NCBI GenBank assembly: GCA_024743275.1
Contig: JANSWW010000010.1
Location: 145,728-209,727, forward strand
DNA: 64,000 bases
Reading direction: 5' to 3'
Origin: Alphaproteobacteria bacterium
Lineage (GTDB): Bacteria; Pseudomonadota; Alphaproteobacteria; JANSWW01
Below the pieces are notes generated by a model. That model was not told the origin of the DNA. It searched no databases and saw only the letters and a list, made by a program, of their open reading frames with translations. A program made the position numbers and the translations under genes. This document shows positions 1 to 47,787 of the stretch, in pieces; the first letter of the stretch is position 1, and each line of letters begins with the position of its first letter.

Positions 1-485
1 ACAGCGAGGCCTATATCCAGGTGAACCCCGACCTTATTCGAGCCGGGCTCACCACCGCGAACGCGCTAGAGCATTTTCTCGCCTTCGGGCAGAACGAGAA
101 CCGACCGCTGGATGCGAATGACTACCTGAACGCGAACCCCGATCTCGTGGAGGCCGGGATCACGGTGACGACCGCCGGGGAGCATTTCGTCAATTATGGT
201 CGGACCGAAGGGCGAGTGATCGCCTTCGACGCCCCTGGTTACATTCTGGCGAATCCGGACCTGACCGACGCGGGCCTTACCGTTCCGCAGTTGATCGAGC
301 ATTTCCAACTTTTCTCGGAATCGGAAGGACGGGGCCTCTTCACGCCCGGCGGATACATCGCCGCGAATCCGGACGTGGCCTCGGCGGGTATCGACGTCTA
401 CCTACATTACCAGGAGTTAGGCCGGGACGAGGGTCGCCTGATTGTGCCGCCGACGATTTCGCCCGGCACCTTCGATGGGATCTAA
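1..485 (+). CDS. C-terminal fragment of an ANPD-repeat protein. The 5' end lies outside the window. Probably another secreted RTX-island protein.
   Basis: Frame 3 is open from base 3 (SEAYIQVNPDL...) to the stop at 483-485. Four repeat cores are visible: YIQVNPDLIRAG, YLNANPDLVEAG, YILANPDLTDAG, YIAANPDVASAG. Each is followed by H[FY]xxFGxxEGR-type tails. Confidence 0.7.
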   Translation, partial: SEAYIQVNPDLIRAGLTTANALEHFLAFGQNENRPLDANDYLNANPDLVEAGITVTTAGEHFVNYGRTEGRVIAFDAPGYILANPDLTDAGLTVPQLIEHFQLFSESEGRGLFTPGGYIAANPDVASAGIDVYLHYQELGRDEGRLIVPPTISPGTFDGI

Positions 486-514
486 GCCCGCCCCGCGACA
501 CCCGTAACCAGCGT

Positions 515-1801
515 TCAGGCCGGCACAATGTTGCCGGAGCGCGTCGATCCGGGGAAGACGTTGCGAGTGTCGACAATCAAAGGGCAGTGTCGACGAATAA
601 GCTCGTAGTCGACACCATCATGATCGGTGCAGATGATCGCGGCATCGATGCCTTCGAGAACCTCCTTTGTTAAAGCAATCGACCCCTGACCGGTGATATC
701 GGGATAACGCCGCAGGCCGGGGACGGAAGGGACCAGAGGGTCGTGATAGGCGACATCCGCGCCCCTGTTGGCGACCTTGTCGTAGATCGCCAAGGCCGGA
801 CTTTCCCGGGTGTCGCCGACATTCTTTTTGTAGGCGATGCCCACGATGAGGATCTTCGCCCCGTTCAGCCCCTTGCCGGCATGCAGATCGAGTGCCCGTG
901 ACAGCTTCTCCACAACATAGTCCGGCATGTAATTGTTGATCTCGCCGGCCAGCTCGATGAACTTCGTCGAAATACCGAATTCCCGGGCCTTCCAGGTCAG
1001 ATAGAAGGGGTCGATCGGGATGCAGTGACCGCCCAACCCCGGCCCCGGATAAAAGGGCATATAGCCGAAAGGTTTTGTCTTGGCCGCTTCGATGACCTCC
1101 CAAACGTCGATCCCCATCCGATCGAAGACGACCTTGAGCTCATTGACCAAAGCAACGTTGACCGATCGGAAGATGTTCTCGGTCAACTTGACGGCCTCGG
1201 CCGTCTTGGACGATGAAACCACAACGATTTCCGGAATAATCCTCTCGTACAACGCCTTCATTCTCGCCAAGGATCGGTCGTCATCGGCGCCAATGATCTT
1301 GGGCGTCGTCTTGATCGAGAAGCTCTTATTTCCGGGATCCTCCCGTTCCGGAGAGAATCCCAGAAACAGGTCCGATCCCACCTTCAGCCCGGACTTTTCC
1401 AAGAGCGGGCGGAGGACATCGGCGGTCGTCCCCGGATAGGTCGTCGATTCGAGTGAAATCAACTGCCCCGGCCGAAGATGGGGCAGAAAAGCCTCCGCCG
1501 TGTTCAAGACAAAGGAAAGATCCGGCGCCCGGTGACGATCCAGAGGGGTCGGCAGACAAAGGCATACCGCGTCCGCCCCGGCGATGACCGCATAGTCGGT
1601 CGTCGCCTGGAAACGGCCCTCTCGCACCAATCGCCGCAAGGTCTCCCCACCGAAACGCTCGATGTAGGACTCGCCCCGGCGGAGCTTTCGGATCTTTTCC
1701 GGGTCGATGTCGATCCCACTGACGTTCAACCCGCTTTCGGCGAAAGACAATGCCAAGGGCAGGCCGACATAACCGAGACCAATAACGGCAACCGATCGCA
1801 T
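515..1801 (-). CDS. NAD-dependent nucleotide-sugar dehydrogenase of the UDP-glucose/GDP-mannose dehydrogenase family. It resembles UDP-N-acetyl-hexosamine dehydrogenases.
   Basis: 428 aa. N-terminal Rossmann motif AVIGLGYVGLPLA and catalytic-region motif GGHCIPIDPFYL. Length and domain order are typical of the family. Confidence 0.9.
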   Translation of the reverse strand: MRSVAVIGLGYVGLPLALSFAESGLNVSGIDIDPEKIRKLRRGESYIERFGGETLRRLVREGRFQATTDYAVIAGADAVCLCLPTPLDRHRAPDLSFVLNTAEAFLPHLRPGQLISLESTTYPGTTADVLRPLLEKSGLKVGSDLFLGFSPEREDPGNKSFSIKTTPKIIGADDDRSLARMKALYERIIPEIVVVSSSKTAEAVKLTENIFRSVNVALVNELKVVFDRMGIDVWEVIEAAKTKPFGYMPFYPGPGLGGHCIPIDPFYLTWKAREFGISTKFIELAGEINNYMPDYVVEKLSRALDLHAGKGLNGAKILIVGIAYKKNVGDTRESPALAIYDKVANRGADVAYHDPLVPSVPGLRRYPDITGQGSIALTKEVLEGIDAAIICTDHDGVDYELIRRHCPLIVDTRNVFPGSTRSGNIVPA

Positions 1802-1967
1802 GGAGACAACCCTTGGATTTCGACGTCTGAGTTCCGCTTCTTATCGCGCGGCGGCGCGCAACGGTTTTGACGAACCGCCACGCGCCCTTCTAGACCATCC
1901 CTATCGGGAAGGCCATTCCCGCGCCAACAGCGAAAGAGAACCTCGGACACGAAGACCCGGGTGCCGG

Positions 1968-2696
1968 CTATTCCGCGGCGGTGGCCGCGAAACGCTGCTT
2001 CTCGTCCTCGAACGGGCCGTCGATGACCTGCTGTAAGCAAAAGTCCGTCAGAAGCTTTTCGCGATGCCATTCCTCTGCCATCGGCACATTGGCGCATTCG
2101 TGGAAACAAGGCGTTCCGAGCGTCCAATGCAGCAGTTTCGCCTCCTTGTTCGCCCCGAACTCGTCCGGAAGCCAATTCCAGACCTTCGGAATCTCGCCGA
2201 CTTTGGAATCGTCGAGCCAGGTGAAGCGGTGGAGCTGCGCCCCGGTCGCCCGCATGACGAAATCGGGCGTCAGGGTCTTGTTGTCCGGATGGCCACAATT
2301 CCACAGCACGACGCTCGACCAGTTCTTGCGGGGATAGTCCTGATTGGCCGCCCCGAGATATTTCTGGGTCTGCTTGGTCTTGTAGTCGTGATGCACGCAC
2401 ATGACGGCCTTGCTCTCGTCCCGCAACGCGAACAGTTCCGAGACATCGCCGCGCAGCAACATGTCGCCATCAACGAACAGCGCCCATCCTTGATAGCCCA
2501 TCAGATGGGGAACCAGAAAGCGGCTATAGATGAACTGGTTCGATCCGTCCGTATGGGTCTCCGAATACGCACCCAGGTTCCCGAGTGCCAGCGGCGAGAT
2601 CGCCAGGGGGCTCGTGGAGTGGCGGATCAGGCTGTTGCTGCAAACGTGGTAGGCAACGGCCTCACGGGGATCGAATCCGATGAATACGTTGAGCAT
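1968..2696 (-). CDS. GT-A fold glycosyltransferase, GT8-like. Paralog of 34021-34710.
   Basis: 242 aa with the DxD-type motif ALFVDGDM. Blocks FLxP..GWALFVDxD..ELFAL..MCVxHDY..YPRKNWSS..GHP..HRFxWL are shared with the second copy. Confidence 0.7.
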   Translation of the reverse strand: MLNVFIGFDPREAVAYHVCSNSLIRHSTSPLAISPLALGNLGAYSETHTDGSNQFIYSRFLVPHLMGYQGWALFVDGDMLLRGDVSELFALRDESKAVMCVHHDYKTKQTQKYLGAANQDYPRKNWSSVVLWNCGHPDNKTLTPDFVMRATGAQLHRFTWLDDSKVGEIPKVWNWLPDEFGANKEAKLLHWTLGTPCFHECANVPMAEEWHREKLLTDFCLQQVIDGPFEDEKQRFAATAAE

Positions 2697-4116: not shown

Positions 4117-6981
4117 TCAGACCAGACCGAGGGTCAACGCCTGAAACTCCGATTGGGTGACGCCGATCAGGATCAGAGAATCGCTCGCCCCGAAGACCAG
4201 AAGGCCCGACTGGCCGTCATCGGTTTGCACTGGCGTTGTGTTCGCCGTCCCGAAGGTCTCGGGGAGAAGCAGGCGGTCGCCTTCCGCCGCATCGGCATCA
4301 TGCAGGGTGAAGCTGCGCGGCGACGATTGCTCCGCTCCGGCCGCCAGGATCGAGAACTGGTCCGCGCCCTTTCCCCCCACCGCACGGACACCGTCCACGC
4401 TCAAGATGAGCAAGTCGTCGCCATTGCCGCCATTGAGGAGCGCCGTATCGCCCCTTGCGACAAGGCGGTCGTCGGTATCCGTGCCCGCCATCACAAAGCT
4501 GCCGCCGGTTTCGGCGAATACCGAAGAGGGGCTGACGCCGGTGCCCGCCGTTTCGGGATTGAGGGCGATATAGCCGTCGCTGTCGAAGAAACCCCGCCCT
4601 TCGATCTGCCCGAAGGCCCGGTAGTGGTCGTAGGCGGTCGCGGCCGTGAAGCCGGCCGCCGCCACATCCGGATTGGCCAGAAGATAGGCCTCTCCGTCGA
4701 AGGCGGGCAGACGGTCCTCGACCGCGCCGAAGATCCGATAGTGATCGAAGGCGTTCGCCGCCGTGAACCCCGCCGCCGCCACGTCCGGATTGGCCAGGAG
4801 ATAGGCGCTCCCGTCGAAGGAAAGAAGCCGCTGCTCGTCCTGGCCGAAGGCCATGTAGTGCTCCAAGGCATCTGCCCCCGACGCCGCCACATCCGGATTG
4901 GCCGCGAGATAGGCGGTGGCGTCGAAGGAGGTTAGGCGCCCCTCCACATAGCCCGAGGTGGAGAAATGATTCAACGCGTCGGTGTCGGCGGGAAGGTCCG
5001 GGTTGGCCGCGAGATAGGCCTCGGCGCTGAAGCCCTCCGGCGCGGACGTTCCCGTCTCGATGGCGTCGGCGGCGATGGTTCCATCGGCGAATTGGTAGAA
5101 TTCGATGGACTGGGCCCGGAGGGTCGCGGCGCCGCCGAACACAAGATCGTCGCCCTCCCGGGAAATACTATAGGCCGACCGGGCACCGCTCAGGATCAAC
5201 CTGTCTTCACCGGCACCGCCGGCGATGGTGTCGCTGCCGGCCGTCACCGTGAAAACGTCGTTTCCCCGGCCGCCGTCGAGTAGATTGTCGCCGCTGGACC
5301 CGGTGAGTGTGTCATTGCCATCCCCGCCATAGGCGTTTTCGATGGCGGAGCCCGTTGCGATTGTCAGCGACGTGCCGTCGATCACGGACGATGTCCCACC
5401 GGCGAGGGAGATTGTCGAGTTCGAGGTCACGGCCGCCGCATTCAGGGTGTCGGTCCCGCCGTCGGTATCCGCGAGGGCGGTACGCGCCGTCTCCCGCCCC
5501 GCCAGATCCGAATAGCTATCGGTGAAGACATAGGAATCGTTGGCCGTCTCCGACCTGCCATAGGCGGTCAATTGCCAACTGACCAAGCTACCGAAATCGA
5601 AACGGGCCGAGTCGGTCACCCGCAAGGTCCATTCGCCGGCCGCCTCCTCCCCCCAATGGAAGGTGGACGAGGTGATGAACGCGATATCGTTGCCGCTGTC
5701 CCCGAAGAGATTGGACGCGCTCTGGCCCGGACGGGCGACCAGGGTCGAAACCGTTCCGGATGGACTGATCAGGTCGACGGTCAGGTCGCCGACAAAAGTG
5801 TGTTGGATGTCGAGGGTAACCTCGACCTGCTCGACCAGGAAGTCGCCGACGAGGAGAATGCTGTCGGAAAGCCCCGCATCGTCATTGTCGGGGATGGCCG
5901 CATTCGGCGTCGAGGTGGCGGTGAGGCTCGCCAAATTGCTTGCGGTCCGTTGGTCGGTCCACGTCTCGGCCAACCGAACCGCCGCATGGGCGTCGACCAG
6001 TCCATGGGCCGTTTGATGGCTGACCGTGAACCCGCCCCCATTTATCATGTTGGCGCCGTTCGTGGCGAGATCCGTCTCGGTCCCGAGATCCCGGGCGCTC
6101 AACGCCAGGATCTCCTGCACGTCCCGATAGCCGAGGGCCGCGTTCGCCTCGAGCATCAGGGCGGCGACTCCCGCCACATTGGGGGCGGCGAAGGACGTGC
6201 CGTTGAAAGAGCCGTAATCGCTTGAGACGGCGCCGTCCGTCCCGACAGGATCGGTGGTCACAATCTCGACACCCGGGGCGGCGACCAGATTGCCGGCACC
6301 GGGCGTCGAAAAACCGGCGACGGTCCCGGTTCGGTCGATCGCGGCCACCGAGATCGTGTAAACCGAGTTCTGGAAATTGTGATAGTTGACGTTGTCGCCC
6401 TCCTCCGCCGCGTTGCCGGCCGCGAAGGTCACCACCGTCCCGAGCCCGCCCCGGCCCAGCGTCGCCGCATCTTTGACCGCCTGGGCGATCGTCGCGAAAG
6501 ACGGATTGGAGAAGTCGTCGGCGAAGCGGACGTTGACGCCCCAACTGTTGTTCACGACATCGAAGTTCTGCATCTGGTTGAGGGCGGCGGCGAGCTCGTT
6601 GGTGCTCAGCCCGCCATACTCGATGCGGATCCCTGCGAGAGCGGCATTGTAGGCGACCCCGGTCCCGCCCTCGCCATTGTCCCGCCCCTGGGAGACAACG
6701 CCCGCGACGGCGGTCCCGTGGAACTCGTCGGCACTCGTGATGTCGGCATCGCCGTCGTTCTCTTCGGCGTCGAAATCGATGGCCGGGTTATAGGCCCCCA
6801 CCAGATCCGGGTGGTCGATGTCGATGCCCTCATCCAGGACCCCGACGGTGACACCCGCCCCGGTGTAGTCGGACCACACCGGCAGGACATTCATGTCGAC
6901 CCCGGCGGTCCCACCGTCCTGCCCGGTGTTCTGAAGATGCCACTGACTGGAGAACAGTATATCAGAAGGGACCGTGCTCAT
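4117..6981 (-). CDS. Secreted subtilisin-like serine protease (peptidase S8) with a proprotein-convertase-type P-domain, RTX Ca-binding repeats and the 5x ANPD module. T1SS substrate candidate.
   Basis: Catalytic-triad contexts GVLDEGIDIDHPD, HGTAVAGV and GTSFAAPNVAGVAAL. P-domain-like segment HTFVGDLTVDLISPSGT. Nonapeptide repeats GGDGNDTLTGSSGDNLLDGGRGND. No N-terminal signal peptide. The ATG at 6981 is preceded by GGAG at 6 nt; the ORF track starts at TTG 7005. Confidence 0.9.
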   Translation of the reverse strand: MSTVPSDILFSSQWHLQNTGQDGGTAGVDMNVLPVWSDYTGAGVTVGVLDEGIDIDHPDLVGAYNPAIDFDAEENDGDADITSADEFHGTAVAGVVSQGRDNGEGGTGVAYNAALAGIRIEYGGLSTNELAAALNQMQNFDVVNNSWGVNVRFADDFSNPSFATIAQAVKDAATLGRGGLGTVVTFAAGNAAEEGDNVNYHNFQNSVYTISVAAIDRTGTVAGFSTPGAGNLVAAPGVEIVTTDPVGTDGAVSSDYGSFNGTSFAAPNVAGVAALMLEANAALGYRDVQEILALSARDLGTETDLATNGANMINGGGFTVSHQTAHGLVDAHAAVRLAETWTDQRTASNLASLTATSTPNAAIPDNDDAGLSDSILLVGDFLVEQVEVTLDIQHTFVGDLTVDLISPSGTVSTLVARPGQSASNLFGDSGNDIAFITSSTFHWGEEAAGEWTLRVTDSARFDFGSLVSWQLTAYGRSETANDSYVFTDSYSDLAGRETARTALADTDGGTDTLNAAAVTSNSTISLAGGTSSVIDGTSLTIATGSAIENAYGGDGNDTLTGSSGDNLLDGGRGNDVFTVTAGSDTIAGGAGEDRLILSGARSAYSISREGDDLVFGGAATLRAQSIEFYQFADGTIAADAIETGTSAPEGFSAEAYLAANPDLPADTDALNHFSTSGYVEGRLTSFDATAYLAANPDVAASGADALEHYMAFGQDEQRLLSFDGSAYLLANPDVAAAGFTAANAFDHYRIFGAVEDRLPAFDGEAYLLANPDVAAAGFTAATAYDHYRAFGQIEGRGFFDSDGYIALNPETAGTGVSPSSVFAETGGSFVMAGTDTDDRLVARGDTALLNGGNGDDLLILSVDGVRAVGGKGADQFSILAAGAEQSSPRSFTLHDADAAEGDRLLLPETFGTANTTPVQTDDGQSGLLVFGASDSLILIGVTQSEFQALTLGLV
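4510..5031 (-). repeat. Five tandem ANPD repeats (protein-level module) inside the S8 protease gene.
   Basis: Cores YLAANPDLPADT, YLAANPDVAASG, YLLANPDVAAAG, YLLANPDVAAAG and YIALNPETAGTG. The last copy is degenerate. Confidence 0.8.
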
Positions 6982-7186: not shown

Positions 7187-10100
7187 TTAGAAGCCGGTAA
7201 GGAACAGGGCTTCGGCGCTGAGGTCGCTGGTCGACACGCCGATCAACTCCAGGGTCTGGTCGCTGGACAGCGTGAACACCGCGTTGCCAGCGGCATTGTC
7301 GGAGGCCCCGGCGATGATCGCGTCCCGGTCCAGGGCGGCCCCGGTCCGGTTCTCGATCAGAAGACGGTCGCCCTCGGCGAAGTTGAAGTCACCGATCACG
7401 TCGGCCCCGCTCTCGCCGGTCACCAGCTTGAACAGGTCCGCCCCGGCGCCGCCGATATGGATATCGCTGCCGGCACCGCCTTCCAGCGTGTCGTCCCCAC
7501 CGAGGCCGCGGATGATGTCGTCACCCGCCCCGGCGAAGATCGTGTCGTCCGCCTGGCTGCCCTTGATCGCCGGCGACCGGCCCTCGGTCTGGCCGAACAG
7601 GTCGAAATGACTCGCCCCCGGCGTCGCCGACGCGGCCACGTCGGCGTTGGCGAAGGCATAGCCCGCCCCATCGAAGAAGCCCCGACCCTCATTCTTCCCG
7701 AAGGTCGAATAATGGGTGATCGCCGTGTCCGTCGTAAAGCCGGCGGCCGCAACGTCCGGGTTCGCCAGCAGATAGCCCCGGGCATCGAAGCTATCGATTC
7801 GGCCCTGGTCCCGGCCCGTCGTCAGGAAGTGGTCGAGCGCCGTCGCCTCGGTCACGCCCTGGGCCGCAAGATCCGGGTTCGCCGCAAGATATTGCGCGCC
7901 GCTGAACTGAACCAGGCGGTCTTCCGACTCGCCGTGGGCAAGATAGTGGGTGATCGCCGTGCTCGTCGTGAAGCCGGCGGCCGCCACATCCGGGTTGGCC
8001 TGGAGATATTCGGCGGCATTGAACTCGACAAGACGACCCTCGTAGAAGCCCCCACCCTGGAAATGCGCCACCAACGCGTCCCCGGTCAGGCCGGCGGCGG
8101 CCAGATCCGGGTTCGCCGCCAGATAGAAGCTTTCCACGAACTGGCCTTCGTACTTGTTGCCGAGAACATCGTCGGCCCGCTTGTCCAGGTTCTGGATCCG
8201 GCTGTCCCGGCCCGGATCGACCTCGGCCTCCGCGAACGGCGTCGAGGAGAAGTTGGCCGCCAGATATTCCGCCAGGGCATCCTGCTCCGTGCCCGGATTG
8301 GCGAAAGTCGCGGACCCGGTGTCTGTCAGCACGTCTGTCAGCTCGACCCGGTTCGCCCGCGCCGCGTTCTCCGTGATGAAGCCTTCGAACGGGTAATTGT
8401 CGCCGCCGTCGACCAGGAAGTTCAGGGTCACCACCCGGATCTCCCGGCTGCCGTCCCCGATCACCTCGCCGTCCCGCGCGATCACGTCGACGATCTGATT
8501 GTTGTTGTTTTGATCGACGATCGTCAGCGACGTCACCCGGTCGCCCGCCGGAAGATCGTCGTCGAAGGCGAACTGAATGCCGCCGAACTGGCCGAACTGG
8601 CCCGGGGTGGCGCCGTCCGCCGTCGCGGAGACCGCGTGCTCGACCGTCGCCAGAAGTTGGTCCGCCGTAAGGGTCAACAGGGTCAGCGAGTTGTTGAAGC
8701 GCAGGCTGTTGGAGATATCCAGCTGGCTGACCTGGCCCTCTTCCTTGCCGGCCAGCGCGTTCGCCTGCGGCGGCAGAAGCTGGGTTGTGGCGCCCTCATT
8801 CGACGTCTCGCCGATCACCGAGCGGATACCGCCGCCATTCTTGATCGACACCGTCACCGTGCTGTCGTGCTGCTGGGCCACGAACAGGTTCGCGTCCGCC
8901 GTCAGATTGCCGAGATTGGTCTCCTCGGTCCGGACCTGGCTGCGCTCCCCGTCGATATAGACCGAGGTCGACCCGAAGGTGTTGCCGTCCTGGGCCGTCA
9001 CCACCCCGGTCACCGAGTTCACCAGCGTCTGCACCGTGTTCCCGGCCGTACCAGACGCGAAGGCCGCCTCCGTCGAGCCCCACAGCGCTTCCACCTGGGC
9101 CGTCGTCGTCGCATAGGCGCCCGAGACGTTCGGATCGATCGAGGAGGTCTGCAGGATCCCGTCAGCGTTGAAGTCCACCACCAGGCGGCCGACATAGCTG
9201 TACTCGCCGTCCGTCGACACCACCGCGACCGGATTGCCGGACTTGTCCGTGGTCAGGAACGGATAGTCGCCCTGGCTCGTATCGCCCGGCTGAACGCTGC
9301 CGCGAGCCACATCCTCGCTGTCCAGAAGGCGCGTGTCCGAGCCGCCGGCGACGATCACGTCGACCCCGTCCAGCAGCGTCGCAAGCTCCTGCTCCAGCGC
9401 GAACTGCTGCAGGTGGGAGACCAGCACGATCTTGTTGATCCCGTCGGCCACCATCTGGTCGACGATCGGCTGCAGCACCGCGGCCAGCGCCGTCATGTCG
9501 TTGGTGGTCCCGGCCGTCGAGACGACATTGCCGGTGCTTGAGATCGATTCGATGACCTGGGTCGTCGCCCCGACGACACCGATCCGCTGCCCGTCCTCTT
9601 CGATCACCGTCGCCGGCGCGATCTGCGGCGTGGAGGCGTTCGAAAGATCGTTCGGCAGCGAGCGGAAGCTCTCATTGGAAATGATCGACGAAGTGTAGAG
9701 GTTGGACAGATCCCCGTTCGACGAGAAATCCAGATTGGCCGAGAGATAAGGGAACTGGGCCCCGAGATAGCGCACATCCCCGACGGTCGCCCCGCGGATA
9801 TCCGGCTCGATCAGGCCTTCGAAGGTGTCGGTCCCGAGATCGAACTCGTGATTGCCGACCGCCGACGCATCGAAGCCGATCGCGTTCATGATCGAGATAT
9901 CGATCCGGCCGCCGCCCTCGCGGAAGTTCGACAGTGTCTCGCCCTCGCCCAGGGAAGACGAGAAGATCTGCGTGTTCGCGGTCTGAAGATCGGTCCGGAT
10001 CGACCGGTCACTGCTCGCGTTGAAGAACGGACCCGGCAGATAGTTGTCGCCGGCCGAAAGCGTGATCGACGCCGAGATCTGATCGTCCAGATAGTCCTCG

Positions 10101-29728: not shown

Positions 29729-29756
29729 GACATTCTCCAGAATTCTAATAAGTGCC

Positions 29757-38802: not shown

Positions 38803-38879
38803 GACCGGTTTGCTGATTTCGCCTTGTATGGAGACCTCCGTCGGCGCACGCGCGGATGTTTGCGTTTACCGGCCCCGTA

Positions 38880-41708
38880 CTACTCGGCGGTGATCAAATC
38901 CGCAAGGTCGCTTTCCTCGACACCCTCCTCCATAACCACGCCCTGTTCCTTCAGATCGTGATCATAGTTCGGATGGCGCAGGACGCTAAGATCGCCGGCC
39001 ACCAGCTTGCCCAGTTCGCCGCCCACCGTCTCGACGACGTCCGTCCAGGTCCTCGGATTGCTTTTTCGGAAAATCCGCATGCCGGGATACCAAAGGGCGT
39101 CGTCGCGGCCGACCGTCCACCGCCAATCCGAGACGAACGGAATCATCGTCCAACAGGGCACACCCAGCCCGCCGGCGGTATGCACCCCGGCATTGGTCGC
39201 CGAAATGATCAGATCGCAGGCGGCGATTTGGGCGGCGCTGGCGTCGAGATCGGTCATCGGATCGATTTCCGGATCGTAGATGATGTCGATGCCGTGCTGC
39301 TTGTTGGCGTCCTGGATCACCGGCTCGACCGGTCCGTATTGGATGGAGACGAATTGGATATCGTCGCCATGGCGGAAGATCGGCTCCCAATACCGGAGCG
39401 GAACAGACCGAAGCTCCTGGCGCTTCGCGAGCTTGCCGCCGTTCCAACCGATTCCGACGATCCACTTCTTCTTCGGGTTTCGATAGCGTTCGCGAAGTTG
39501 CGCGACCCGGTCGGGGTCGGCGGTGAGGAAAGACTTCTTCTGATTCGAGAAATCCTTCACCTTGCGTCTGAGAAACCGCGCGATACTGGCGCAGGGCAAC
39601 TGAAGGTCAGCAGACTGCATGACTTGGGGCGGCACCTTACGCATGCAATGAACTTCCGCATCGGGGAAGCTTCTTTCGATCAAGGGTAACATGCGGTACT
39701 CGGCTTCGATGAAGACATGCTTGGCTCGGCCGATGATCTCATGCGCCATGCTGAAAAACATGAGATGGTCGCCGACCCCCTGTTCCGGCCACAGAACAAC
39801 CGACTTGTCGGACAGATCCTCCTCACCGTCCCACCACGGCATCGTGAACGGACGTTTTTCGCCGCGCGCCATCCGGAGGACCTCGAAGCCCATTTCGTAA
39901 AGATCAAACCCTTCGCCGAATTCGCCGATGCCCAGGTGGAACAGCGCACAGTTGAACGCCCGTCTCTTGGTGTATTTCAGGTCCTTTGCCCGGCGGAAAA
40001 ACGCCAATGCAAGGGCTTGATATTGCTGTCCCTTCAATGCCGCACCGATGAAGTCCAGCAGACTCGCGCTCGTCGGCGCCTTACGATAGGCGTGCTCGAA
40101 ACAATGGAGCGCGTCGGCAATGTTCCCCATGCCGAGGTTGACTTCGCCGCGGGCGACCAGGGCCATTGGCGCGTCCGGTTGCAGTTCGACAAGACGGCTG
40201 GTAACCGCATCGGCCTCTTCCCATTCGGCGAACTCAATGAGGACCTTGGCGAGGGATTGAACCGCGAAGGCGCTATCCGGGTCCTCCTCCACCGCCCTGC
40301 GATACCATTTAATGGCTTCCTTTTTATTGGCCTGTTCGGCATAGGCCTTCCCGATGCGGACGATGAGATCCTTGTTGTCCGGCTTTAGGTCGTAGGCGAT
40401 TTCGTAATGCTTGATCGCCTCGTCCTGACGCTCCGACTGGACATACACGGTCGCCAACCGGGAATGGGCCAAGTAGTAGGTCGGGTCCGCCTCGATCGCT
40501 TCCAACAGAAGCGGCTCGGCCTCTTTGATTCGTTCCTGTTGAATAAGCAACGCGGCCCTTTGCGCCAAGACCGCGACGCCGCGCGATTCGGAAGGGACCC
40601 TTTCCATCAATTCCTGTGCCCGATCCGCCTCGCCGAGGCGAGATGCGACATCACTGGCCAGGATGAAGGTCCTGGGACTTTCCGGCTCGATTAAAACGAG
40701 GCGGTCCGCGATGGCACCGGCGGACTCGTTCCGTCCCCGCATCGTAAAATAAACACCGAGATTATAGGTATAGGTGCCATGGCCTGGATTGAGGGCTGTC
40801 GAGATCGACATACAGTTCTCAGACAGCGCCTTGAGGTCCCCGCCGGCCAAAAACTGTCCCAAGACATCCCACGACCCTTCGGCGTTCGGGCGGTATTGCA
40901 GAAACCGGAACATATCCTGGGCGCCGTCCAAATAAAGGCCCAGCTTCATTTTCGAGATCGCACGCACTTCGGCGACGGTTTCGGCCGGTAGGGTCCGTTC
41001 CTTTTCCGCGGTGTCGACCAAGGCCAGGGCGGTCTCGTAGTCCTTGAGCTGCATATGAAGATCGACTTTTCGTCGGACGGCGCCCTGGCTCCACGGGTGA
41101 CAGGTATAATAATGGTCGGTCAGCCCCCTAACCGTATCGATGTCCCGCTTCGCCTTGGCGATTTCGATGAGGACCTCAAGATTGCCGGGAAGGAAGTCCT
41201 TCCGCGCATGTGCCTTTCTTGCGGTCGCTTCCGCCTTGTCGATCTGACCTGTCTGGAATTGGATCGCCGCTAGGTTGGCGAGCGCTTCGGCGTTGGAGTT
41301 GAGCTTCGCGAGATGGGTTTCGGCATAATCTAAACCGGTTTTAGGATCCTGCTGGAAGAGTGCGACCGCGAGCAGAACCGATCCGTCCTCGTAATCCGGA
41401 TGCTCCGTGAGGACCTTCCGGAGCATTTCGATCGCCGTCGTAACGTCGCCTTTCCTAAGACGCTCCATGGCGCGTTCCCGAATGATCTCCGGATGGGCGC
41501 TATCGAGCCTCGCCCCGAATTCGCAGAATTCTCGCGCTTTGGAAAGCGCTCCGATGGCGCTCAGGACCCGGGCGGAACGTGCCGCCCGTTCGGCGGTTAG
41601 AGCGTCGATGTCGGCGGGATTGACGCCGTTGAACATGTTGAGGGCGGCTCGCCAATTCCCCTTTTCGAATTGGGCATAGGCGTCATCGATAACGGAACCC
41701 GGAACCAC
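38880..41708 (-). CDS. TPR-repeat protein with one C-terminal GT9-like glycosyltransferase module.
   Basis: About 560 aa of TPR repeats are followed by MPWWDGEE..VVLWPEQGVGDHLMF and ATNAGVHTAGGLGVP...DWRW. The GTG start is uncertain. Confidence 0.8.
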   Translation of the reverse strand: MVPGSVIDDAYAQFEKGNWRAALNMFNGVNPADIDALTAERAARSARVLSAIGALSKAREFCEFGARLDSAHPEIIRERAMERLRKGDVTTAIEMLRKVLTEHPDYEDGSVLLAVALFQQDPKTGLDYAETHLAKLNSNAEALANLAAIQFQTGQIDKAEATARKAHARKDFLPGNLEVLIEIAKAKRDIDTVRGLTDHYYTCHPWSQGAVRRKVDLHMQLKDYETALALVDTAEKERTLPAETVAEVRAISKMKLGLYLDGAQDMFRFLQYRPNAEGSWDVLGQFLAGGDLKALSENCMSISTALNPGHGTYTYNLGVYFTMRGRNESAGAIADRLVLIEPESPRTFILASDVASRLGEADRAQELMERVPSESRGVAVLAQRAALLIQQERIKEAEPLLLEAIEADPTYYLAHSRLATVYVQSERQDEAIKHYEIAYDLKPDNKDLIVRIGKAYAEQANKKEAIKWYRRAVEEDPDSAFAVQSLAKVLIEFAEWEEADAVTSRLVELQPDAPMALVARGEVNLGMGNIADALHCFEHAYRKAPTSASLLDFIGAALKGQQYQALALAFFRRAKDLKYTKRRAFNCALFHLGIGEFGEGFDLYEMGFEVLRMARGEKRPFTMPWWDGEEDLSDKSVVLWPEQGVGDHLMFFSMAHEIIGRAKHVFIEAEYRMLPLIERSFPDAEVHCMRKVPPQVMQSADLQLPCASIARFLRRKVKDFSNQKKSFLTADPDRVAQLRERYRNPKKKWIVGIGWNGGKLAKRQELRSVPLRYWEPIFRHGDDIQFVSIQYGPVEPVIQDANKQHGIDIIYDPEIDPMTDLDASAAQIAACDLIISATNAGVHTAGGLGVPCWTMIPFVSDWRWTVGRDDALWYPGMRIFRKSNPRTWTDVVETVGGELGKLVAGDLSVLRHPNYDHDLKEQGVVMEEGVEESDLADLITAE

Positions 41709-44700: not shown

Positions 44701-47489
44701 GTGTCGTTGCCAGCACCGCCATCGAGGCTGTCGGCGGACAAGTTGCCCGAGGTGATCGAAAGGCTGTTGGCCGTTGTGACGGAGGCACCGGCGACCACGA
44801 GACCACCGGTAGCGTTCGCTGTGTCGCTAATGTTGATGGTCGTGACGCCAAGCGCGGTGAACGTCGAATCGTTGACGGTCACCGTGTTGAGCGTCGAAAC
44901 ACCGCCGAACTGGAGCGTTTCAACTTCGCTGATGTTCGAGAAGGCACCTGCGGTGAAGGTGTAGACGGACGCGCCCGAGAAATCCAACACGTCGGTCCCA
45001 CTGCCGCCGACAACGGTATCGGACGTCAGTTCGTCCGTGGAGAGCACGAACACATCGTTCCCGTCGCCACCGACGAGGCTGTCGGACCCCGTCTGGCCGG
45101 CGATTGTGTCGGCACCGGCACCACCAAGGATGGTGTCGTTGCCGGCCGCACCGGTCAGGTTGTCGTCCCCGTCACCGCCGACGATCGAGTCGGCGCTGGT
45201 GCCGCCCTGAACCTGGTCGTTGCCGCCGCCGGACGAAATGGTGTTGCCGCCGGAACCACCGAGGATCGAGTCCGCGCCGTCGCCGGTCGTGATCGACTGG
45301 GTCGTGCTGGCACCCCGAACGATGAAGGAGTTGGAGCTGCCGGTGGAATCGAGGTTTTCGAACGCCTGCAGGATCGGACCATCGCTACCGGTCAGCTCGC
45401 CACGGGTCGTGTCCCCGTCGAGATCGGACTGGTTGATGTTGCCGTTGTTGACAGCGGCAGCACCGGCGGAAACCGCCGTGACGGTGCCGTTGACGGTGAC
45501 GGTCGTCCCGCCCGAACCGCCGGTGAAGTCGACCACCTGGACGGTGGACGTGGTCGGAAGCAGGATCAGGGTGTCGGTCCCGGTCCCGCCCGAAGCGTTG
45601 GACTCGGCGCCGCGGATCGTGATGGTGTCGTCCCCGGCACCACCGTCGATCTGGTCGGCACCGCCGCCGCCGTCGATCAAGTCGTTGCCGCCGGCACCGC
45701 TCAGCGTTTCCGCGGCCGTGGAGCCGATCAGCGTGTCGTTGCCCGACGTACCGCCGGTTTGGATGATCGCGGTTACCGTGACCGAAGCGGTCGAGGTGGC
45801 GCCGAAGCCGTCCGTCACCGTGTACGTGAACGTGGCATCGCCGGCCTGGGACGGCGTGAAGGTAATGGAGAGACCGTCGGAGGCAATCTCGGCGACACCA
45901 GTGGACGGCTGGCTAACCGAAGAAACCGTCAAGGTCTGGTTGGCACCCCCGGTGATGTCCGCATCCGTGTCGTTGGACAGAACGTTGATGGTGGTCGCCT
46001 GACCGACCAGGATGCTGCCCTGGGAATCGGCGGTGGCGACCGGCGCCGTGTTGGTCACGTCGATGCTGGCGGTCGCTTCGACAGAATCCGTGCCGTCGGA
46101 GACGGTGAAGGTGAAGCTATCATCGGCTGCCTGACCGGCGTTGACCGTGTAAGACGCGGTCCCGTCGCCGTTGTTGACGACCGTCCCGCTCGAGGCCGCG
46201 CCGGTGGTGAACGTCAGCGTGTCGCCGTCCGGATCGGTCGCGAAGGTATTGAGATCGATGGTCAGCGTGTTACCGGCGACCACGGTCGCGGCACTGCCGG
46301 CCACCGTCGCCGGCGCGTCATTGACGGCCGCGAGGGTGATGGTGGCGGTCTGAGCGGCGGAATTCTGATTGCCGTCGTTCGCCGTGAACTGGAACGACGC
46401 CGTGCCGTTGAAATCGGCGGTCGGCGTGAACGTGAAGGTACCGTCGCTGTTGACCACGGCGGCGCCGCCGGTGGCGGAACCGTCGACCAGCGCGAAGGTC
46501 AGGGTATCGCCCTCGGTGTCGGTCGCGGTCAGCGTGCCGGTCGCGGTCACGTCTTCCGTTCCGGAGACGGAGAACGCGGCGGCGGTCGGGGCGGCGTTGA
46601 TGACCACGGAGACGGAACCGGTGTCCGTGCCACCGTTGCCGTCGCTGACGACATAGGTGTAGGAGCCGGAGGTCGAGCCGTCGGCCGGCGCGAAGACGAC
46701 GCTGGAGCCGACCAGACCGACCTCACCGCCCGTGGCGTTGCCGACGGAGGAGATGGTCAGGGTATCGCCATTGGCGTCGGTGTCGTTCGACAGAAGAGCG
46801 CCGGAGGAGGTGACGATCGTGGCCGAACCGGGCACGCCGACAACCGTATCGGCGCCGGCGACCGGAGCAGAATTGAAATCGCCGGCGTCGGCGACCGCGA
46901 CCGGGTTCACGAAGGCCCGACCTTCGGACTGACCGAACGCCTGGAAGTGGGCCAGCGCGGTGGCGGTGGTGATCCCGGCGGTGACCAGGTCGGGGTTGAA
47001 GGTCAGGTAGTCGTCGACGTCGAAGGAGAGCAAACGACCTTCGGAACTGCCGAACGTGTTGTAATGCTCAAGCGCGTTCGCCGTCGTGATCCCCGCGGAA
47101 ACGAGATCCGGGTTGGCGTCGAGGTAGAGCTGTGCGTTGAACTCGACCAGACGATTCTCGGACGCACCGAACGCAACGAAGTGCGCCAGGGCGTCGGCAT
47201 CGGACAGGCTCGCCAAATCGGCGTTGGCGGCCTTGTACTCCGTGGCGTCGAAGTTGAACTTACGCCCTTCGGACCGGCCGAAGGCGTTGAAGTGCGTGAG
47301 CGCGTCGGCGTCGGACAGGCTGGCCAGGTCCGCATTCAGCGACTTGTAGACGGTAGCGTCGAACGCGAGAGCGCGCCCTTCGCTAAAACCAAACTGGGCA
47401 TAGTGAGTCGCAGCAGTCGCCTCCGTTACGCCGGCCGTCACCAAATCAGGATTGGCGGCCAGGTAGGAGGCAGCGTTGAACGTTGTCAT
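41799..47489 (-). CDS. Giant (about 1.9k aa) RTX adhesin or S-layer-like protein. Domain order: N-terminal 5x ANPD module, cadherin-like/VCBS-type Ig repeats, RTX blocks, then three roughly 280-aa tandem units.
   Basis: Composition is rich in T/G/A/S/D/N/V. Repeats of the type NDAP...D.DGD.LT resemble cadherin-like or tandem-95 repeats. There are many GGxGxD nonapeptides and no signal peptide. The ATG at 47489 is preceded by GGAG; the ORF track starts at 47504. Confidence 0.9.
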   Translation of the reverse strand: MTTFNAASYLAANPDLVTAGVTEATAATHYAQFGFSEGRALAFDATVYKSLNADLASLSDADALTHFNAFGRSEGRKFNFDATEYKAANADLASLSDADALAHFVAFGASENRLVEFNAQLYLDANPDLVSAGITTANALEHYNTFGSSEGRLLSFDVDDYLTFNPDLVTAGITTATALAHFQAFGQSEGRAFVNPVAVADAGDFNSAPVAGADTVVGVPGSATIVTSSGALLSNDTDANGDTLTISSVGNATGGEVGLVGSSVVFAPADGSTSGSYTYVVSDGNGGTDTGSVSVVINAAPTAAAFSVSGTEDVTATGTLTATDTEGDTLTFALVDGSATGGAAVVNSDGTFTFTPTADFNGTASFQFTANDGNQNSAAQTATITLAAVNDAPATVAGSAATVVAGNTLTIDLNTFATDPDGDTLTFTTGAASSGTVVNNGDGTASYTVNAGQAADDSFTFTVSDGTDSVEATASIDVTNTAPVATADSQGSILVGQATTINVLSNDTDADITGGANQTLTVSSVSQPSTGVAEIASDGLSITFTPSQAGDATFTYTVTDGFGATSTASVTVTAIIQTGGTSGNDTLIGSTAAETLSGAGGNDLIDGGGGADQIDGGAGDDTITIRGAESNASGGTGTDTLILLPTTSTVQVVDFTGGSGGTTVTVNGTVTAVSAGAAAVNNGNINQSDLDGDTTRGELTGSDGPILQAFENLDSTGSSNSFIVRGASTTQSITTGDGADSILGGSGGNTISSGGGNDQVQGGTSADSIVGGDGDDNLTGAAGNDTILGGAGADTIAGQTGSDSLVGGDGNDVFVLSTDELTSDTVVGGSGTDVLDFSGASVYTFTAGAFSNISEVETLQFGGVSTLNTVTVNDSTFTALGVTTINISDTANATGGLVVAGASVTTANSLSITSGNLSADSLDGGAGNDTFTFANVGGTLTGYTGVFSTDDDVDGNGGTDTLIFNTNSFSTGTLTLGASVVAIENIVITGTGGSMTLVTNNANIATTGGVLNVDASNLATAFTFNGAAETALGVYSVTGGSGNDTFTGGSSADTLIGGAGNDLFNVNSADSLVGGDGDDVFQVVTGVALTTATTIVGGANSSTAGDVLLFSGASASNFAITAGMLGSVSGIETLQFGQGSAASITVTDTMMTTLGLTTLTINDTEDRGDLSTATSGGLTVAASALTTANAVNVTTGNLTADSLDGGAGNDTFTFANVGGTLTGYTAVFSTNDDVDGNGGTDTLIFNTTSFSTGTLTLGASVVAIENIVITGSGGAMTLVTNDANAATGATVSVDASTQSAAFTFNGAAETANGIYSVVGGSGDDTFTGGASADTLIGGAGNDLFNVNSADSLIGGDGDDIFQVVTAAALTTATTIVGGANSATAGDVLRFSGASASNFSISAGMLGTISGIETLQFGQASASQITVTDGMMTTLGVTSLTIADIEDRGDVSGATSGGLVVNGVDLSTANSLNITTGNLTADSLDGGAGNDTFTFANVGGTLTGYTAVFSTTDDVDGNGGTDTLVFNTSSFSTGTLTLGASVVAIENIVITGSGGALTLVTNDANVVSGASLTVDASAQSAAFTFTGSNEATTATTVLVTGGAGADSLVGGAGVETLIGGLGNDTLLGGSNSDSILGGSGTDSLVGEAGADTLTGGDGNDSFSFTGNTTASPSNGTNTDVITDFSASADELIITLPDVAGVNFNLTDVGDATDAANGISLLSGAQGEMLFLTGSNRVAIDVDGNGLVQAQDLQISVSGFTGFNRSDVQYRVGLSGSTAIAVTSGGSLQSVLSAFTALSAQVISGATAGDVLDFSGVAGVVTAFSGAASAEVAQTNVASAFSAGLTQTANATAGGIFIFDSANDLLVLGGGISNTYVVQLSGFDGTVTNNGNGFFTLS
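42650..45090 (-). repeat. Three tandem 840-843 bp coding repeats (about 280 aa each) inside the giant RTX gene.
   Basis: The segments starting at 42841, 43681 and about 44524 (gtgatcac[g/a]atgttctcgatgg...cagcgtaccggtgctgaagctg...) align with high nucleotide identity by eye. The protein unit runs GGAGNDLFNVNSADSL.GGDGDD.FQVV...GNLTADSLDGGAGNDTFTFANVGGTLTGYT...ENIVITG. Confidence 0.85.
46917..47480 (-). repeat. Five tandem ANPD repeats at the extreme N-terminus of the giant RTX protein.
   Basis: Cores YLAANPDLVTAG, YKSLNADLASLS, YKAANADLASLS, YLDANPDLVSAG and YLTFNPDLVTAG. Confidence 0.8.
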
Positions 47490-47787
47490 GTCAATTCGCT
47501 CCAAGTTTCTTTTTCAGTGTTAGCGAGAAGCCTGCCATGCCCTAGGCACACTGCGACTTCAGGGGTCCCCTAAACGTACCTTTGGCCGTAACCTACGTGT
47601 TCTGCGACCGCGAAACAAGGGACTTTTTAAAGGATTGCGAAGGCTTCACCTTCATAAATGTGGCGGAAATGCATCACATTGACTCGGCCACATGTCGTGT
47701 TGGCGGACGATGCCTCGCCAACCGGGGGAGTGTCGGTGTTAACCTTTCCCCAATTCTCCGATGCGCCGGTGCCGAAGACGGAACCCA

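What the first reader, a model, noticed from the sequence alone, without database searches (positions are those of the whole stretch)
1..47504. A discrete five-repeat 'ANPD' module shared by six otherwise unrelated secreted proteins
**What the sequence shows**
- Six ORFs contain the same tandem 35-39 aa repeat. They are 1-485 (truncated), 4117-6981, 7187-11584, 12877-14715, 14819-16477 and 41799-47489.
- The consensus is roughly F[DN]xxxY[LI]xANPD[LV]xxAG[ILF]Txxx[AG]xxH[YF]xxFGxxEGR.
- In every complete protein I count exactly five copies. The truncated ORF shows four before the window edge. The block therefore behaves as a fixed module of about 185 aa, not a length-variable array.
- The module is attached to unrelated heads: an S8 protease, a beta-propeller plus 5'-nucleotidase, a cyclophilin, a CAP/SCP domain and a giant adhesin.
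- Its position moves between proteins. It is at the extreme N-terminus of the giant, between the catalytic part and the RTX block in two proteins, after the first RTX block in the protease, and at the extreme C-terminus of the PPIase.
- A Thr two residues after the AG is semi-conserved (AGLT, AGIT, AGFT, AGVT).

**What I cannot say**
I cannot assign the repeat to a named domain family from memory.

**Hypotheses (inference only)**
- (a) It is a cell-surface retention module that binds the glycan made by the interleaved glycan genes. This would be analogous to the N-terminal O-antigen-binding region of Caulobacter RsaA, or to SLH domains binding secondary cell wall polymer.
- (b) It is the acceptor module for the TPR-GT9 enzymes encoded next to the giant gene.
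Basis: partly seen in the sequence, partly recalled or inferred. Interest (0 to 1): 0.88.

Follow-up and report, generated by a model that had tools for sequence, protein, structure and literature searches.

The report
Unannotated five-repeat helical module on exoproteins
Six neighbouring secreted-type proteins share a real, discrete domain of about 190 residues, made of five helical repeats, that belongs to a very large repeat family absent from the Pfam and NCBIfam copies searched here; it is most likely a surface-attachment module, but its ligand is unknown.

Summary
An HMM built from the repeats finds exactly five copies in each of five complete ORFs and four in the edge-cut ORF, and no other ORF in six frames scores significantly. 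The source contig shows that the cut protein also has five. Pfam and NCBIfam have no model for the repeat, and no solved structure resembles it. AlphaFold predicts a helical repeat with three short helices per unit.

The repeat is not local. At least 20,029 protein clusters match it. Nearly all members examined lack a signal peptide. Many are RTX-type proteins with assorted extracellular enzyme heads. Others are large multi-domain polysaccharide synthases.

Array length across the family runs from 1 to 16, so a fixed count of five is not general. However, a capped five-repeat subtype with position-specific signatures does recur in other organisms.

Hypothesis (a), glycan or surface retention, remains the best reading but is only circumstantial:
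- the genes sit between a Wzm/Wzt polysaccharide cluster and type I secretion genes;
- related repeats are fused to homologues of the adjacent GT2 enzyme.

Hypothesis (b), an acceptor for the TPR-GT9 enzymes, is disfavoured:
- the semi-conserved Thr lies at a helix N-cap and is Asn or Asp in the commonest repeat subtype;
- 0 of 87 other loci carry TPR-GT9 genes;
- TPR-GT9 homologues elsewhere sit beside flagellins or a polysaccharide cluster, without the repeat.

The parts
6..443 (+). ANPD repeats 2-5 of protein A. The gene is cut by the window edge. The full protein is 445 aa: a Calx-beta head, then five repeats, then a 12-aa tail.
   Evidence: HMM domains; full-length gene on the source contig
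4459..5019 (-). Five-repeat ANPD module of protein B (gene 4117-6981). Order: S8 protease, P-domain, RTX, ANPD, then an RTX-like C-terminus.
7571..8140 (-). Five-repeat ANPD module of protein C (gene 7187-11584). Order: choice-of-anchor I, 5'-nucleotidase, ANPD, RTX.
12925..13488 (-). Five-repeat ANPD module at the extreme C-terminus of protein D (gene 12877-14712). Order: cyclophilin, RTX, a weak sub-threshold Calx-beta match (16.6 bits vs cut-off 27), ANPD.
15230..15805 (-). Five-repeat ANPD module of protein E (gene 14819-16477). Order: CAP/SCP, ANPD, RTX.
   Evidence: AlphaFold model of this module
46911..47480 (-). Five-repeat ANPD module at the extreme N-terminus of the giant protein F (gene 41799-47489). 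It is followed by Big_9/cadherin-like domains and many RTX blocks. Repeats 2 and 3 are the short ones here.
30809..33957 (-). Type I secretion pair 1: HlyD-type membrane-fusion protein (30809-32185) and ABC exporter (32185-33957).
   Evidence: Pfam
48702..52074 (+). Type I secretion pair 2: ABC exporter (48702-50621) and HlyD-type protein (50701-52074).
   Evidence: Pfam
34834..41708 (-). Two TPR proteins carrying three GT9-like GT-B domains. TPR1 (34834-38802) has two, at about aa 290-560 and 1030-1320. TPR2 (38880-41708) has one, at about aa 600-895.
19486..30809 (.). Sugar synthesis and modification genes: Polysacc_synt_2 dehydratase, TylF and FkbM methyltransferases, radical SAM/SPASM, epimerase, two GT4, 2OG-Fe oxygenase, and KpsF (SIS+CBS).
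   Evidence: Pfam
515..2696 (-). UDP-glucose dehydrogenase (515-1801) and a GT8-like ORF (1968-2696). Wzm, Wzt and a 1275-aa GT2 gene lie just upstream of the window.

Best explanation
The ANPD block is a non-catalytic helical-repeat domain. It has four 39-residue units and one shorter capping unit, and each unit is predicted as helix, kink at Asn-Pro, short helix, longer helix.

It is one subtype of a very large repeat family with the consensus FDxxxYLxxNPD[VL]...H[YF]xxxGxxEGR. Neither Pfam nor NCBIfam matches the window's modules. Members of that family examined here are carried by leaderless proteins of two kinds:
- exoproteins of the type I secretion (RTX) kind;
- cytoplasmic multi-domain polysaccharide synthases, some encoded beside Wzm/Wzt-type export genes.

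The most likely role is a binding module that ties its host protein to the cell's own Wzm/Wzt-exported surface polysaccharide. Outside the cell it would keep the protease, nucleotidase, PPIase, CAP protein and giant adhesin on the O-antigen or capsule layer. In function, not ancestry, that would resemble the RsaA N-terminal domain. On the synthases, the related repeats would hold the enzyme to the growing chain or to the assembly complex.

**Shown:** the domain and its boundaries, the predicted helical repeat, the size of the family, the lack of signal peptides and the link with RTX, and the genomic and fusion links to polysaccharide genes.

**Inferred:** that the module binds anything, that the ligand is a glycan, and that the proteins stay on the surface.
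For: **The module**
- There are exactly five copies in all six proteins.
- The AlphaFold model has mean pLDDT 83.6 with three helices per unit.
- The capped five-repeat subtype recurs with position-specific signatures in many proteins from other organisms. It usually lies 10-22 residues from a C-terminus that ends in an acidic residue followed by hydrophobic residues.

**The family**
- It contains 20,029 clusters at E <= 1e-3.
- Of the 150 best representatives, 139 start with Met, only 3 look like signal peptides, and 55 have at least two GGxGxD motifs.
- Of 63 representatives scanned, 24 have RTX repeats. The other heads are extracellular-type enzymes and adhesin domains.

**Context**
- The window has two ABC/HlyD pairs and a sugar-modification cluster.
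- Wzm, Wzt with Wzt_C, and a 1275-aa GT2 lie just upstream of the window.
- Polysaccharide genes occur in 11 of 86 repeat loci against 2 of 80 control loci (Fisher p = 0.019).
- That excess comes mostly from repeats fused to or adjacent to GT2 domains that are 33-39% identical to the window's neighbouring GT2, inside multi-domain synthases.
- Protein C belongs to the choice-of-anchor I family. From my own knowledge, that family is named for its interchangeable C-terminal anchoring signals.

**Position**
- Three of the six modules are at a protein terminus (A, D, F). That suits a binding domain and not a spacer.

**Precedent**
- The RsaA N-terminal domain is an alpha-helical, Ca2+-dependent O-antigen binder on a type I secreted protein (PMC6978808).
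Against: - There is no direct evidence of binding.
- There is no sequence or fold similarity to RsaA-NTD, SLH or any carbohydrate-binding module.
- The conserved polar residues can mostly be read as helix caps and inter-repeat contacts. On that reading no conserved ligand site stands out.
- Pooled over the six modules, variable positions are not conserved by repeat position.
- The modules are very acidic, with pI 4.0-4.5 and net charge -14 to -24. The locus glycan is probably acidic too, given the UDP-glucose dehydrogenase and KpsF genes. Binding would then need bridging cations.
- Of the 7 loci looked up one by one, most showed no polysaccharide or type I secretion genes within 10 kb.
- The control loci differ in taxonomy, and the polysaccharide queries were chosen from this locus.
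Confidence: 0.35

Rival explanations
1. The module is a protein-protein docking or oligomerisation domain, similar in logic to a dockerin. A shared tag would let diverse enzymes assemble on a common scaffold. The scaffold could be the giant adhesin, an outer-membrane or secretion component, or, for the synthases, the cytoplasmic assembly complex.
For: - The same tag sits on unrelated heads that are encoded side by side. Paralogues carrying the repeat also cluster in other genomes: 18 of 87 loci have at least two such ORFs.
- From general knowledge, helical-repeat folds usually bind proteins.
- The conserved residues look structural, which would leave variable surfaces free for specific partners.
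- The repeat works in both cytoplasmic and secreted proteins.
Against: - No candidate partner is conserved near the repeat genes.
- Pfam finds no dockerin, cohesin or other docking family in the six proteins.
- The giant protein carries the same module, not a complementary one.
Confidence: 0.2
2. The module is a passive structural element. It would act as a rigid spacer or ruler, or as a segment that aids folding and secretion, and it would have no ligand.
For: - Array length across the family varies from 1 to 16.
- In the multi-domain synthases the repeats lie between a modifying domain (pyruvyl- or methyl-transferase) and the GT domains.
- From my own knowledge, the coiled-coil rulers of WbdD and WbbB occupy that same position. 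The GT2 next to the window has a long central stretch with no Pfam match that looks helical and Ala/Glu/Arg-rich by eye.
- The conserved residues look structural.
- The acidic composition is typical of type I secretion substrates.
Against: - In three of the six window proteins the module is at the very N- or C-terminus, where it can space nothing.
- A strict copy number of five, with a capping repeat and position-specific signatures kept across organisms, points to a defined domain and not an adjustable spacer.
Confidence: 0.2
3. The module is the acceptor substrate of the adjacent TPR-GT9 enzymes. It would be O-glycosylated on the Thr after AG, in the cytoplasm, before export.
For: - The TPR proteins have a GT9-like GT-B fold. 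The best structural matches include TibC, which heptosylates an adhesin.
- They share the TPR-plus-GT-B layout of FlmG, a TPR-guided flagellin glycosyltransferase (PMC7591256). No direct sequence comparison with FlmG was made.
- They lie next to the giant adhesin gene.
- Thr or Ser is present in 20 of 23 long repeats.
Against: - The Thr is at the predicted N-cap of helix 3. At the same position the commonest subtype in the family has Asn 51% and Asp 40%, followed by Pro 89%.
- None of 87 other repeat loci has a GT9-like domain.
- Homologues of the TPR-GT9 domain sit next to four flagellin genes, or next to a Wzm/Wzt cluster, with no repeat nearby.
- The enzymes could equally act on the Ser/Thr-rich body of the giant protein or on the polysaccharide.
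Confidence: 0.07

Closest known systems
RsaA N-terminal O-antigen-binding domain (Caulobacter S-layer protein)
   Same: Both are alpha-helical, non-catalytic regions of about 200-250 aa on leaderless proteins exported by type I secretion. In RsaA the domain is at the N-terminus, as it is in the giant protein here (PMC6978808). From my own knowledge, the Caulobacter genes also lie next to type I secretion and O-antigen genes.
   Different: There is no detectable sequence or fold similarity. RsaA-NTD is not a tandem repeat. Binding and Ca2+ dependence are unproven here. This module also occurs internally, at C-termini, and on cytoplasmic synthases.
Pfam DUF5338 (PF17273)
   Same: A repeat subtype with a longer linker (NPDVAAAVxxG...) in relatives P0003 and P0012 passes the DUF5338 gathering score (30.8 bits against 25.9). 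The match is to a core of about 19 residues. DUF5338 is also uncharacterised; no paper in the library mentions it.
   Different: The window modules do not match DUF5338 even at E <= 10. The match covers only positions 21-39 of a 69-position model. It is not a model of the repeat or of the five-repeat domain.
PPR/TPR-type helical hairpin repeats and mTERF repeats
   Same: The period is 35-41 residues and the units are all-helical and stacked. There is a weak profile hit to a designed PPR protein (E = 1.9e-4 summed). mTERF, a three-helix repeat, is the top Foldseek hit.
   Different: Each individual PPR match has E > 20. The mTERF match has E = 2.4 and TM about 0.2. Pfam gives no TPR, PPR or Sel1 match on the modules. 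The signature motifs differ.
Cell-surface binding repeats such as SLH domains and choline-binding (CW_binding_1) repeats
   Same: Both are promiscuous non-catalytic tags. Both are found on many different secreted enzymes and adhesins, at varying positions and in varying copy numbers.
   Different: These are Gram-positive wall-binding modules with different folds. Pfam gives no match. The ligand here is unknown.
FlmG and TibC/Aah protein glycosyltransferases (relevant to the neighbouring TPR-GT9 genes, not to the repeat)
   Same: The neighbouring genes have a TPR array plus a GT-B catalytic domain. Their fold is closest to the GT9 enzymes, including TibC. A homologue lies in a block of four such genes beside flagellin genes. 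FlmG uses its TPR domain to bind its protein substrate (PMC7591256).
   Different: The Pfam GT9 score is below threshold (14 bits against 22). No flagellin gene was seen among the window ORFs scanned. The substrate is unknown. A homologue in Azospirillum sits in a polysaccharide cluster instead.

Membership tests
RsaA N-terminal domain | Sequence or fold homology to the solved RsaA-NTD structure | tested here: not met
   The profile search of PDB sequences at E <= 10 returned only designed repeat proteins. Foldseek against PDB gave no match at E <= 0.001, and RsaA was not among the 16 matches listed.
RsaA N-terminal domain | Ca2+-dependent binding of the cell's O-antigen | not testable with these tools
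   This needs biochemistry. The only support is context: Wzm/Wzt and type I secretion genes nearby.
SLH, choline-binding, dockerin or other named anchoring repeats (Pfam) | A match to the family's profile HMM | tested here: not met
   Pfam and NCBIfam scans of the six proteins gave no family over the repeat region. The isolated modules scanned at E <= 10 gave only chance-level hits.
DUF5338 (PF17273) | A score at or above the gathering threshold of 25.9 bits | tested here: not met
   The window modules gave no hit at E <= 10. The distant relatives P0003 and P0012 score 30.8 and 29.5 bits through short matches of about 19 residues.
TPR/PPR/Sel1 helical-hairpin repeats | A profile match to the repeat and a two-helix hairpin unit | tested here: inconclusive
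   The summed E-value against a designed PPR is 1.9e-4, but every individual stretch has E > 20. Pfam gives no match. The model has three helices per unit, two of them separated by an Asn-Pro kink.
RTX nonapeptide repeats (PF00353) | GGxGxDxUx nonapeptides that form a beta-roll | tested here: not met
   Pfam places the RTX matches outside the module in B, C, D, E and F. The module itself is predicted to be all-helical.
Type I secretion substrates (the six host proteins) | No N-terminal signal peptide, RTX repeats and/or an acidic-hydrophobic C-terminal tail, and ABC/HlyD genes nearby | tested here: met
   The N-termini lack signal-peptide features (by eye). RTX repeats are present in five of the six. 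Two ABC/HlyD pairs lie in the window. Secretion itself was not tested.
GT9 glycosyltransferases (the neighbouring TPR proteins) | A Pfam PF01075 match at or above 22 bits | tested here: not met
   The score is 14 bits, E = 0.031, on the C-terminal domain of TPR1. One homologue (P0271) carries a precomputed PF01075 hit.
GT9 glycosyltransferases (the neighbouring TPR proteins) | A GT-B fold closest to the heptosyltransferases | tested here: met
   The model has pLDDT 88.8 and pTM 0.87. The top Foldseek hits are 3tov, 1psw (WaaF), WaaC and TibC, at E from 9e-7 to 5e-6, probability 1.00.

The most novel reading that the evidence does not exclude
The FDxxxYLxxNPD...HYxxxGxxEGR repeat is a previously unrecognised, widespread polysaccharide-binding fold of Gram-negative bacteria. 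It would be used twice in one pathway. On the cytoplasmic synthases it would hold the growing O-antigen or capsule chain. On exoproteins released by type I secretion it would hold them to the finished polymer. That would make it a general cell-surface display tag, comparable in role to SLH or choline-binding repeats in Gram-positive bacteria.
Probability: 0.25. Interest if true: 0.8.

Novelty: new variant of a known kind. Interest (0 to 1): 0.55.

Why it matters
A repeat present in more than 20,000 protein clusters has no usable model in the Pfam and NCBIfam copies searched here, no solved structure, and no mention found in the paper library. Defining it would annotate large parts of many proteins now labelled hypothetical, and of RTX exoproteins and O-antigen synthases.

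If it proves to be a surface-polysaccharide anchor, it would explain how Gram-negative bacteria keep enzymes exported by type I secretion on the cell. It would also provide a portable display tag.

The capped five-repeat subtype is small and self-contained. That makes it a practical target for structure determination and binding assays.

Tried and rejected
- **Named families.** Pfam and NCBIfam scans of the whole proteins and of the isolated modules gave no family.
- **Solved structures.** The PDB profile search gave only a weak summed hit to a designed PPR protein. Foldseek of the module model against PDB gave nothing at E <= 0.001. Homology to RsaA-NTD, SLH, dockerin and mTERF was therefore rejected.
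- **Literature.** Searches with sequence motifs and with DUF5338 found nothing relevant.
- **Genome scan.** It returned 80 loci with no repeat in any of them. I reused these loci as a control set.
- **Positional orthology.** Pooled over all six modules it was not significant (p = 0.37). It became visible only within subtypes.
- **Plug model for the giant protein.** I considered whether the N-terminal module acts as a LapA-style retention plug. I set this aside because the same module is internal or C-terminal in the other five proteins, and no LapG/LapD genes were seen.
- **Ca2+ dependence.** I considered Ca2+-dependent folding as the unifying property. Related repeats also occur on cytoplasmic synthases, and this could not be tested.
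- **Source organism.** The names are withheld. Relatives of individual proteins are alphaproteobacterial.
Full report
**1. The observation**

Translating the six ORFs shows the repeat at the stated places. I built an HMM from the 29 copies and searched the six-frame translation of the window.
- It finds five domains in each of 4117-7005(-), 7187-11680(-), 12877-14715(-), 14819-16525(-) and 41799-47504(-).
- It finds four in the edge-cut ORF 3-485(+).
- Per-copy E-values run from 1e-10 to 1e-20, and no other ORF scores significantly.

The window's proteins are also encoded on a 73.9-kb Logan assembly contig that extends upstream of the window start. There the cut protein is 445 aa, with a Calx-beta head and exactly five copies at aa 245-433, followed by a 12-residue tail. 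So all six proteins have five copies.

Pfam and NCBIfam confirm the heads: S8 plus P-domain, choice-of-anchor I plus 5'-nucleotidase, cyclophilin, CAP, and Big_9/cadherin-like. They also show RTX blocks in five of the six proteins, so the proteins share two module types, not one.

Within the window:
- Tyr6 and Asn10 are invariant.
- Phe1, Asp12, Gly17, His27, Gly32, Glu35 and Arg37 are nearly invariant.
- The Thr after AG is present in 17 of 23 long repeats.

**2. What the module looks like**

No Pfam or NCBIfam model covers it. A profile search of PDB sequences gives only a weak summed hit to a designed PPR protein, and every individual stretch has E > 20.

AlphaFold2 on the alignment of the six modules gives mean pLDDT 83.6 and pTM 0.55. 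It predicts three helices per unit, of about 7, 5 and 12 residues:
- Helix 1 follows the FD.
- Helix 2 starts at the Pro of NPD.
- Helix 3 starts just after the semi-conserved Thr and carries the His-Tyr/Phe.

Foldseek against PDB finds nothing at E <= 0.001. The best match is mTERF at E = 2.4. The module is therefore a helical repeat with no solved relative.

In A-E the last unit is shorter and joins directly to unit 4 (...EGRGFFD...). F instead has two short internal units.

**3. How large the family is**

A full HMMER search of 1.84 billion cluster representatives with the module profile finds 20,029 proteins at E <= 1e-3, 8,516 at E <= 1e-10 and 1,832 at E <= 1e-30.

Among the best 150:
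- Contiguous arrays contain from 1 to 16 copies, so five is not a family rule.
- 139 start with Met, only 3 look like signal peptides, and 55 carry at least two GGxGxD motifs.

A Pfam scan of 63 of them shows RTX in 24, serralysin C-terminal domain in 8, Calx-beta in 6, Big_9 in 5, matrixin in 5, PPC in 4 and cyclophilin in 3. It also shows trypsin, cellulase, M30 and lectin domains, and, in a few, GT2, RgpF, GT61 and methyltransferase domains. Individual scans confirm N-terminal repeat arrays fused to GT2, RgpF and PAP2 domains.

The commonest form of the repeat is ...NPDVAAAG[VIL][ND]P[L]xH[YF]...EGRxP. The window's form has one extra helical turn and Thr in place of Asn/Asp-Pro. The short capping unit in A-E has the common spacing.

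One further subtype passes the threshold of Pfam DUF5338 through a core of about 19 residues. The window modules do not. I found no paper on DUF5338 or on the motif.

**4. A discrete five-repeat domain does exist beyond this genome**

Pooled over the six modules, same-position repeats are not more alike than other pairs (p = 0.37). Inspecting the five-copy arrays among the representatives tells a different story. A module with position-specific signatures recurs in many proteins at 50% identity or less. The signatures are:
- unit 1: W..QAYLDANPDL;
- unit 3: LDA.DYLNANPDL..AG.H;
- unit 4: FDAAGY.LLNPDL;
- unit 5: F.PG.YIAAN.DVA.AG..YLHYQ.

In most of these proteins the module lies 10-22 residues from a C-terminus that ends in an acidic residue followed by hydrophobic residues. 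Proteins A and D are of this type. A second type, represented by E, C and B, runs straight into an RTX block.

**5. Genomic context**

The window holds the following:
- two ABC/HlyD pairs;
- KpsF;
- two GT4 genes;
- TylF and FkbM methyltransferases;
- a radical SAM/SPASM enzyme;
- an epimerase and a Polysacc_synt_2 dehydratase;
- a UDP-glucose dehydrogenase.

Just upstream of the window are a 1275-aa GT2 protein, Wzt with a Wzt_C domain, Wzm and a GT4. The repeat genes are thus flanked on one side by an ABC-transporter-type polysaccharide cluster and on the other by type I secretion genes.

I looked up seven homologues on long contigs.
- Repeat-bearing genes cluster together.
- The CAP-plus-repeat design recurs in Microvirga.
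- The choice-of-anchor I, 5'-nucleotidase, RTX, repeat design recurs in Teichococcus.
- Most of these loci showed no polysaccharide or type I secretion genes within 10 kb.

I then compared 87 repeat loci (0.79 Mb) with 80 repeat-free control loci (1.42 Mb).
- GT9-like domains: 0 against 0.
- Type I ABC exporter with HlyD: 3 against 0, with one control locus having HlyD alone. This is not significant.
- Loci with at least two repeat ORFs: 18 of 87.

With a wider set of polysaccharide queries, 11 of 86 repeat loci scored against 2 of 80 controls (Fisher p = 0.019). Most of this excess comes from repeats fused to, or next to, GT2 domains that are 33-39% identical to the GT2 beside the window. These sit inside multi-domain synthases with pyruvyl- or methyl-transferase, GT1, WbsX or RgpF domains. 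Two caveats apply: the controls differ in taxonomy, and the queries came from this locus.

**6. The neighbouring TPR proteins**

TPR1 contains two copies, and TPR2 one copy, of a domain of about 300 aa. Pfam GT9 scores only 14 bits on it. NCBI names some homologues TPR-containing glycosyltransferase, and one homologue carries a precomputed PF01075 hit.

A model built with 37 sequences has pLDDT 88.8 and pTM 0.87. Its best Foldseek matches are GT9 enzymes: 3tov, WaaF, WaaC and the adhesin heptosyltransferase TibC, at E about 1e-6.

One homologue lies in a block of four such genes beside four flagellin genes with FlaF and FlbT. That layout recalls FlmG, whose TPR domain binds flagellin and whose GT-B domain glycosylates it (PMC7591256). 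I made no direct sequence comparison with FlmG. Another homologue, in Azospirillum, lies beside UDP-glucose dehydrogenase, a sulfotransferase, Wzm/Wzt and a large GT2. Neither locus has the repeat.

**7. Weighing the explanations**

*Acceptor hypothesis (b).* It is weak.
- The Thr is at a helix N-cap.
- It is replaced by Asn or Asp, which also favour that position, in the commonest subtype of the family.
- The enzymes and the repeat do not travel together.

*Pure spacer.* It fits the synthase fusions, where the repeats lie between domains. It does not fit three window proteins whose module is terminal, nor the strict capped five-copy design.

*Binding module.* It fits the terminal positions, the promiscuous attachment to many heads, the clustering of tagged genes and the choice-of-anchor host. 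Whether the ligand is the cell's own polysaccharide or a protein cannot be decided here.

I favour the polysaccharide at 0.35 for three reasons:
- the double link to Wzm/Wzt-type synthesis, by neighbourhood and by fusion;
- the type I secretion context;
- the RsaA precedent of a helical, Ca2+-dependent O-antigen binder (PMC6978808).

Against this, the modules are very acidic (pI 4.0-4.5) and the conserved residues all look structural.

**8. Novelty and score**

The kind of thing, a non-catalytic repeat tag on secreted proteins, is familiar. This particular family has no model in Pfam or NCBIfam, no solved structural relative, very many members, and a presence on both exoproteins and synthases. 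I rate it a new variant of a known kind, with interest 0.55.

Noticed in passing
window 34834-41708 (-): Two large TPR proteins carry three copies of a GT9-like GT-B domain, whose fold is closest to WaaC, WaaF and TibC. Homologues elsewhere form a four-gene block beside flagellin genes, in a FlmG-like layout. Here they sit beside a giant RTX adhesin gene, which suggests cytoplasmic glycosylation of a type I secretion substrate.
   Followed up: partly
L169 12893-18838 (source contig, just upstream of window position 1): There is a 1275-aa GT2 protein with an unassigned N-terminal region and a long, helical-looking central stretch. It is followed by Wzt with a Wzt_C domain and by Wzm. This layout is that of an ABC-transporter-dependent O-polysaccharide pathway. 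The central stretch may be a coiled-coil ruler; I judged this by eye only.
   Followed up: partly
L150 8525-12370; L154 2467-6333; L146 1097-5587; L164 9470-12136: In other organisms the common form of the repeat sits inside very large multi-domain polysaccharide synthases. Examples are pyruvyl transferase or methyltransferase, then repeats, then GT2-GT2-GT1; and repeats, then WbsX-RgpF. The repeats lie between the modifying and polymerising domains.
   Followed up: partly
window 30809-33957 (-) and 48702-52074 (+): Two separate ABC-exporter/HlyD pairs flank the giant adhesin region. No TolC-type outer-membrane gene was seen among the ORFs scanned.
   Followed up: no
window 11876-12880 (+): A BNR_2 (sialidase-like) gene lies on the opposite strand between proteins C and D. 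Its 3' end overlaps the end of D by 4 bases.
   Followed up: no
window 16491-17693 (-): A 400-aa protein made mostly of RTX repeats lies directly upstream of protein E and has no ANPD module. It shows that the tag is not obligatory for RTX proteins of this locus.
   Followed up: no
window 22336-23967 (-): A radical SAM/SPASM enzyme sits inside the sugar-modification cluster, next to a TylF-type methyltransferase and an epimerase. This hints at an unusual sugar modification.
   Followed up: no
L082, L083, L084: Repeat-bearing genes cluster with other repeat-bearing genes in unrelated genomes. In Microvirga a CAP protein, a 1319-aa protein and a 307-aa protein, all carrying repeats, lie within 8 kb. 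They are next to ManC, GT2, PGM and UDP-glucose dehydrogenase genes.
   Followed up: partly
L086 5935-10438 (Teichococcus aestuarii): The architecture of protein C appears as three consecutive called genes: choice-of-anchor I; 5'-nucleotidase plus RTX; and a 145-aa repeat protein. This may be a frameshifted or mis-called single gene.
   Followed up: no
window 52897-55191 (+), 56036-58647 (+), 60731-62083 (-): Several long ORFs (764, 391, 479 and 450 aa) have no Pfam match at E <= 0.001. I did not check whether they are real genes.
   Followed up: no
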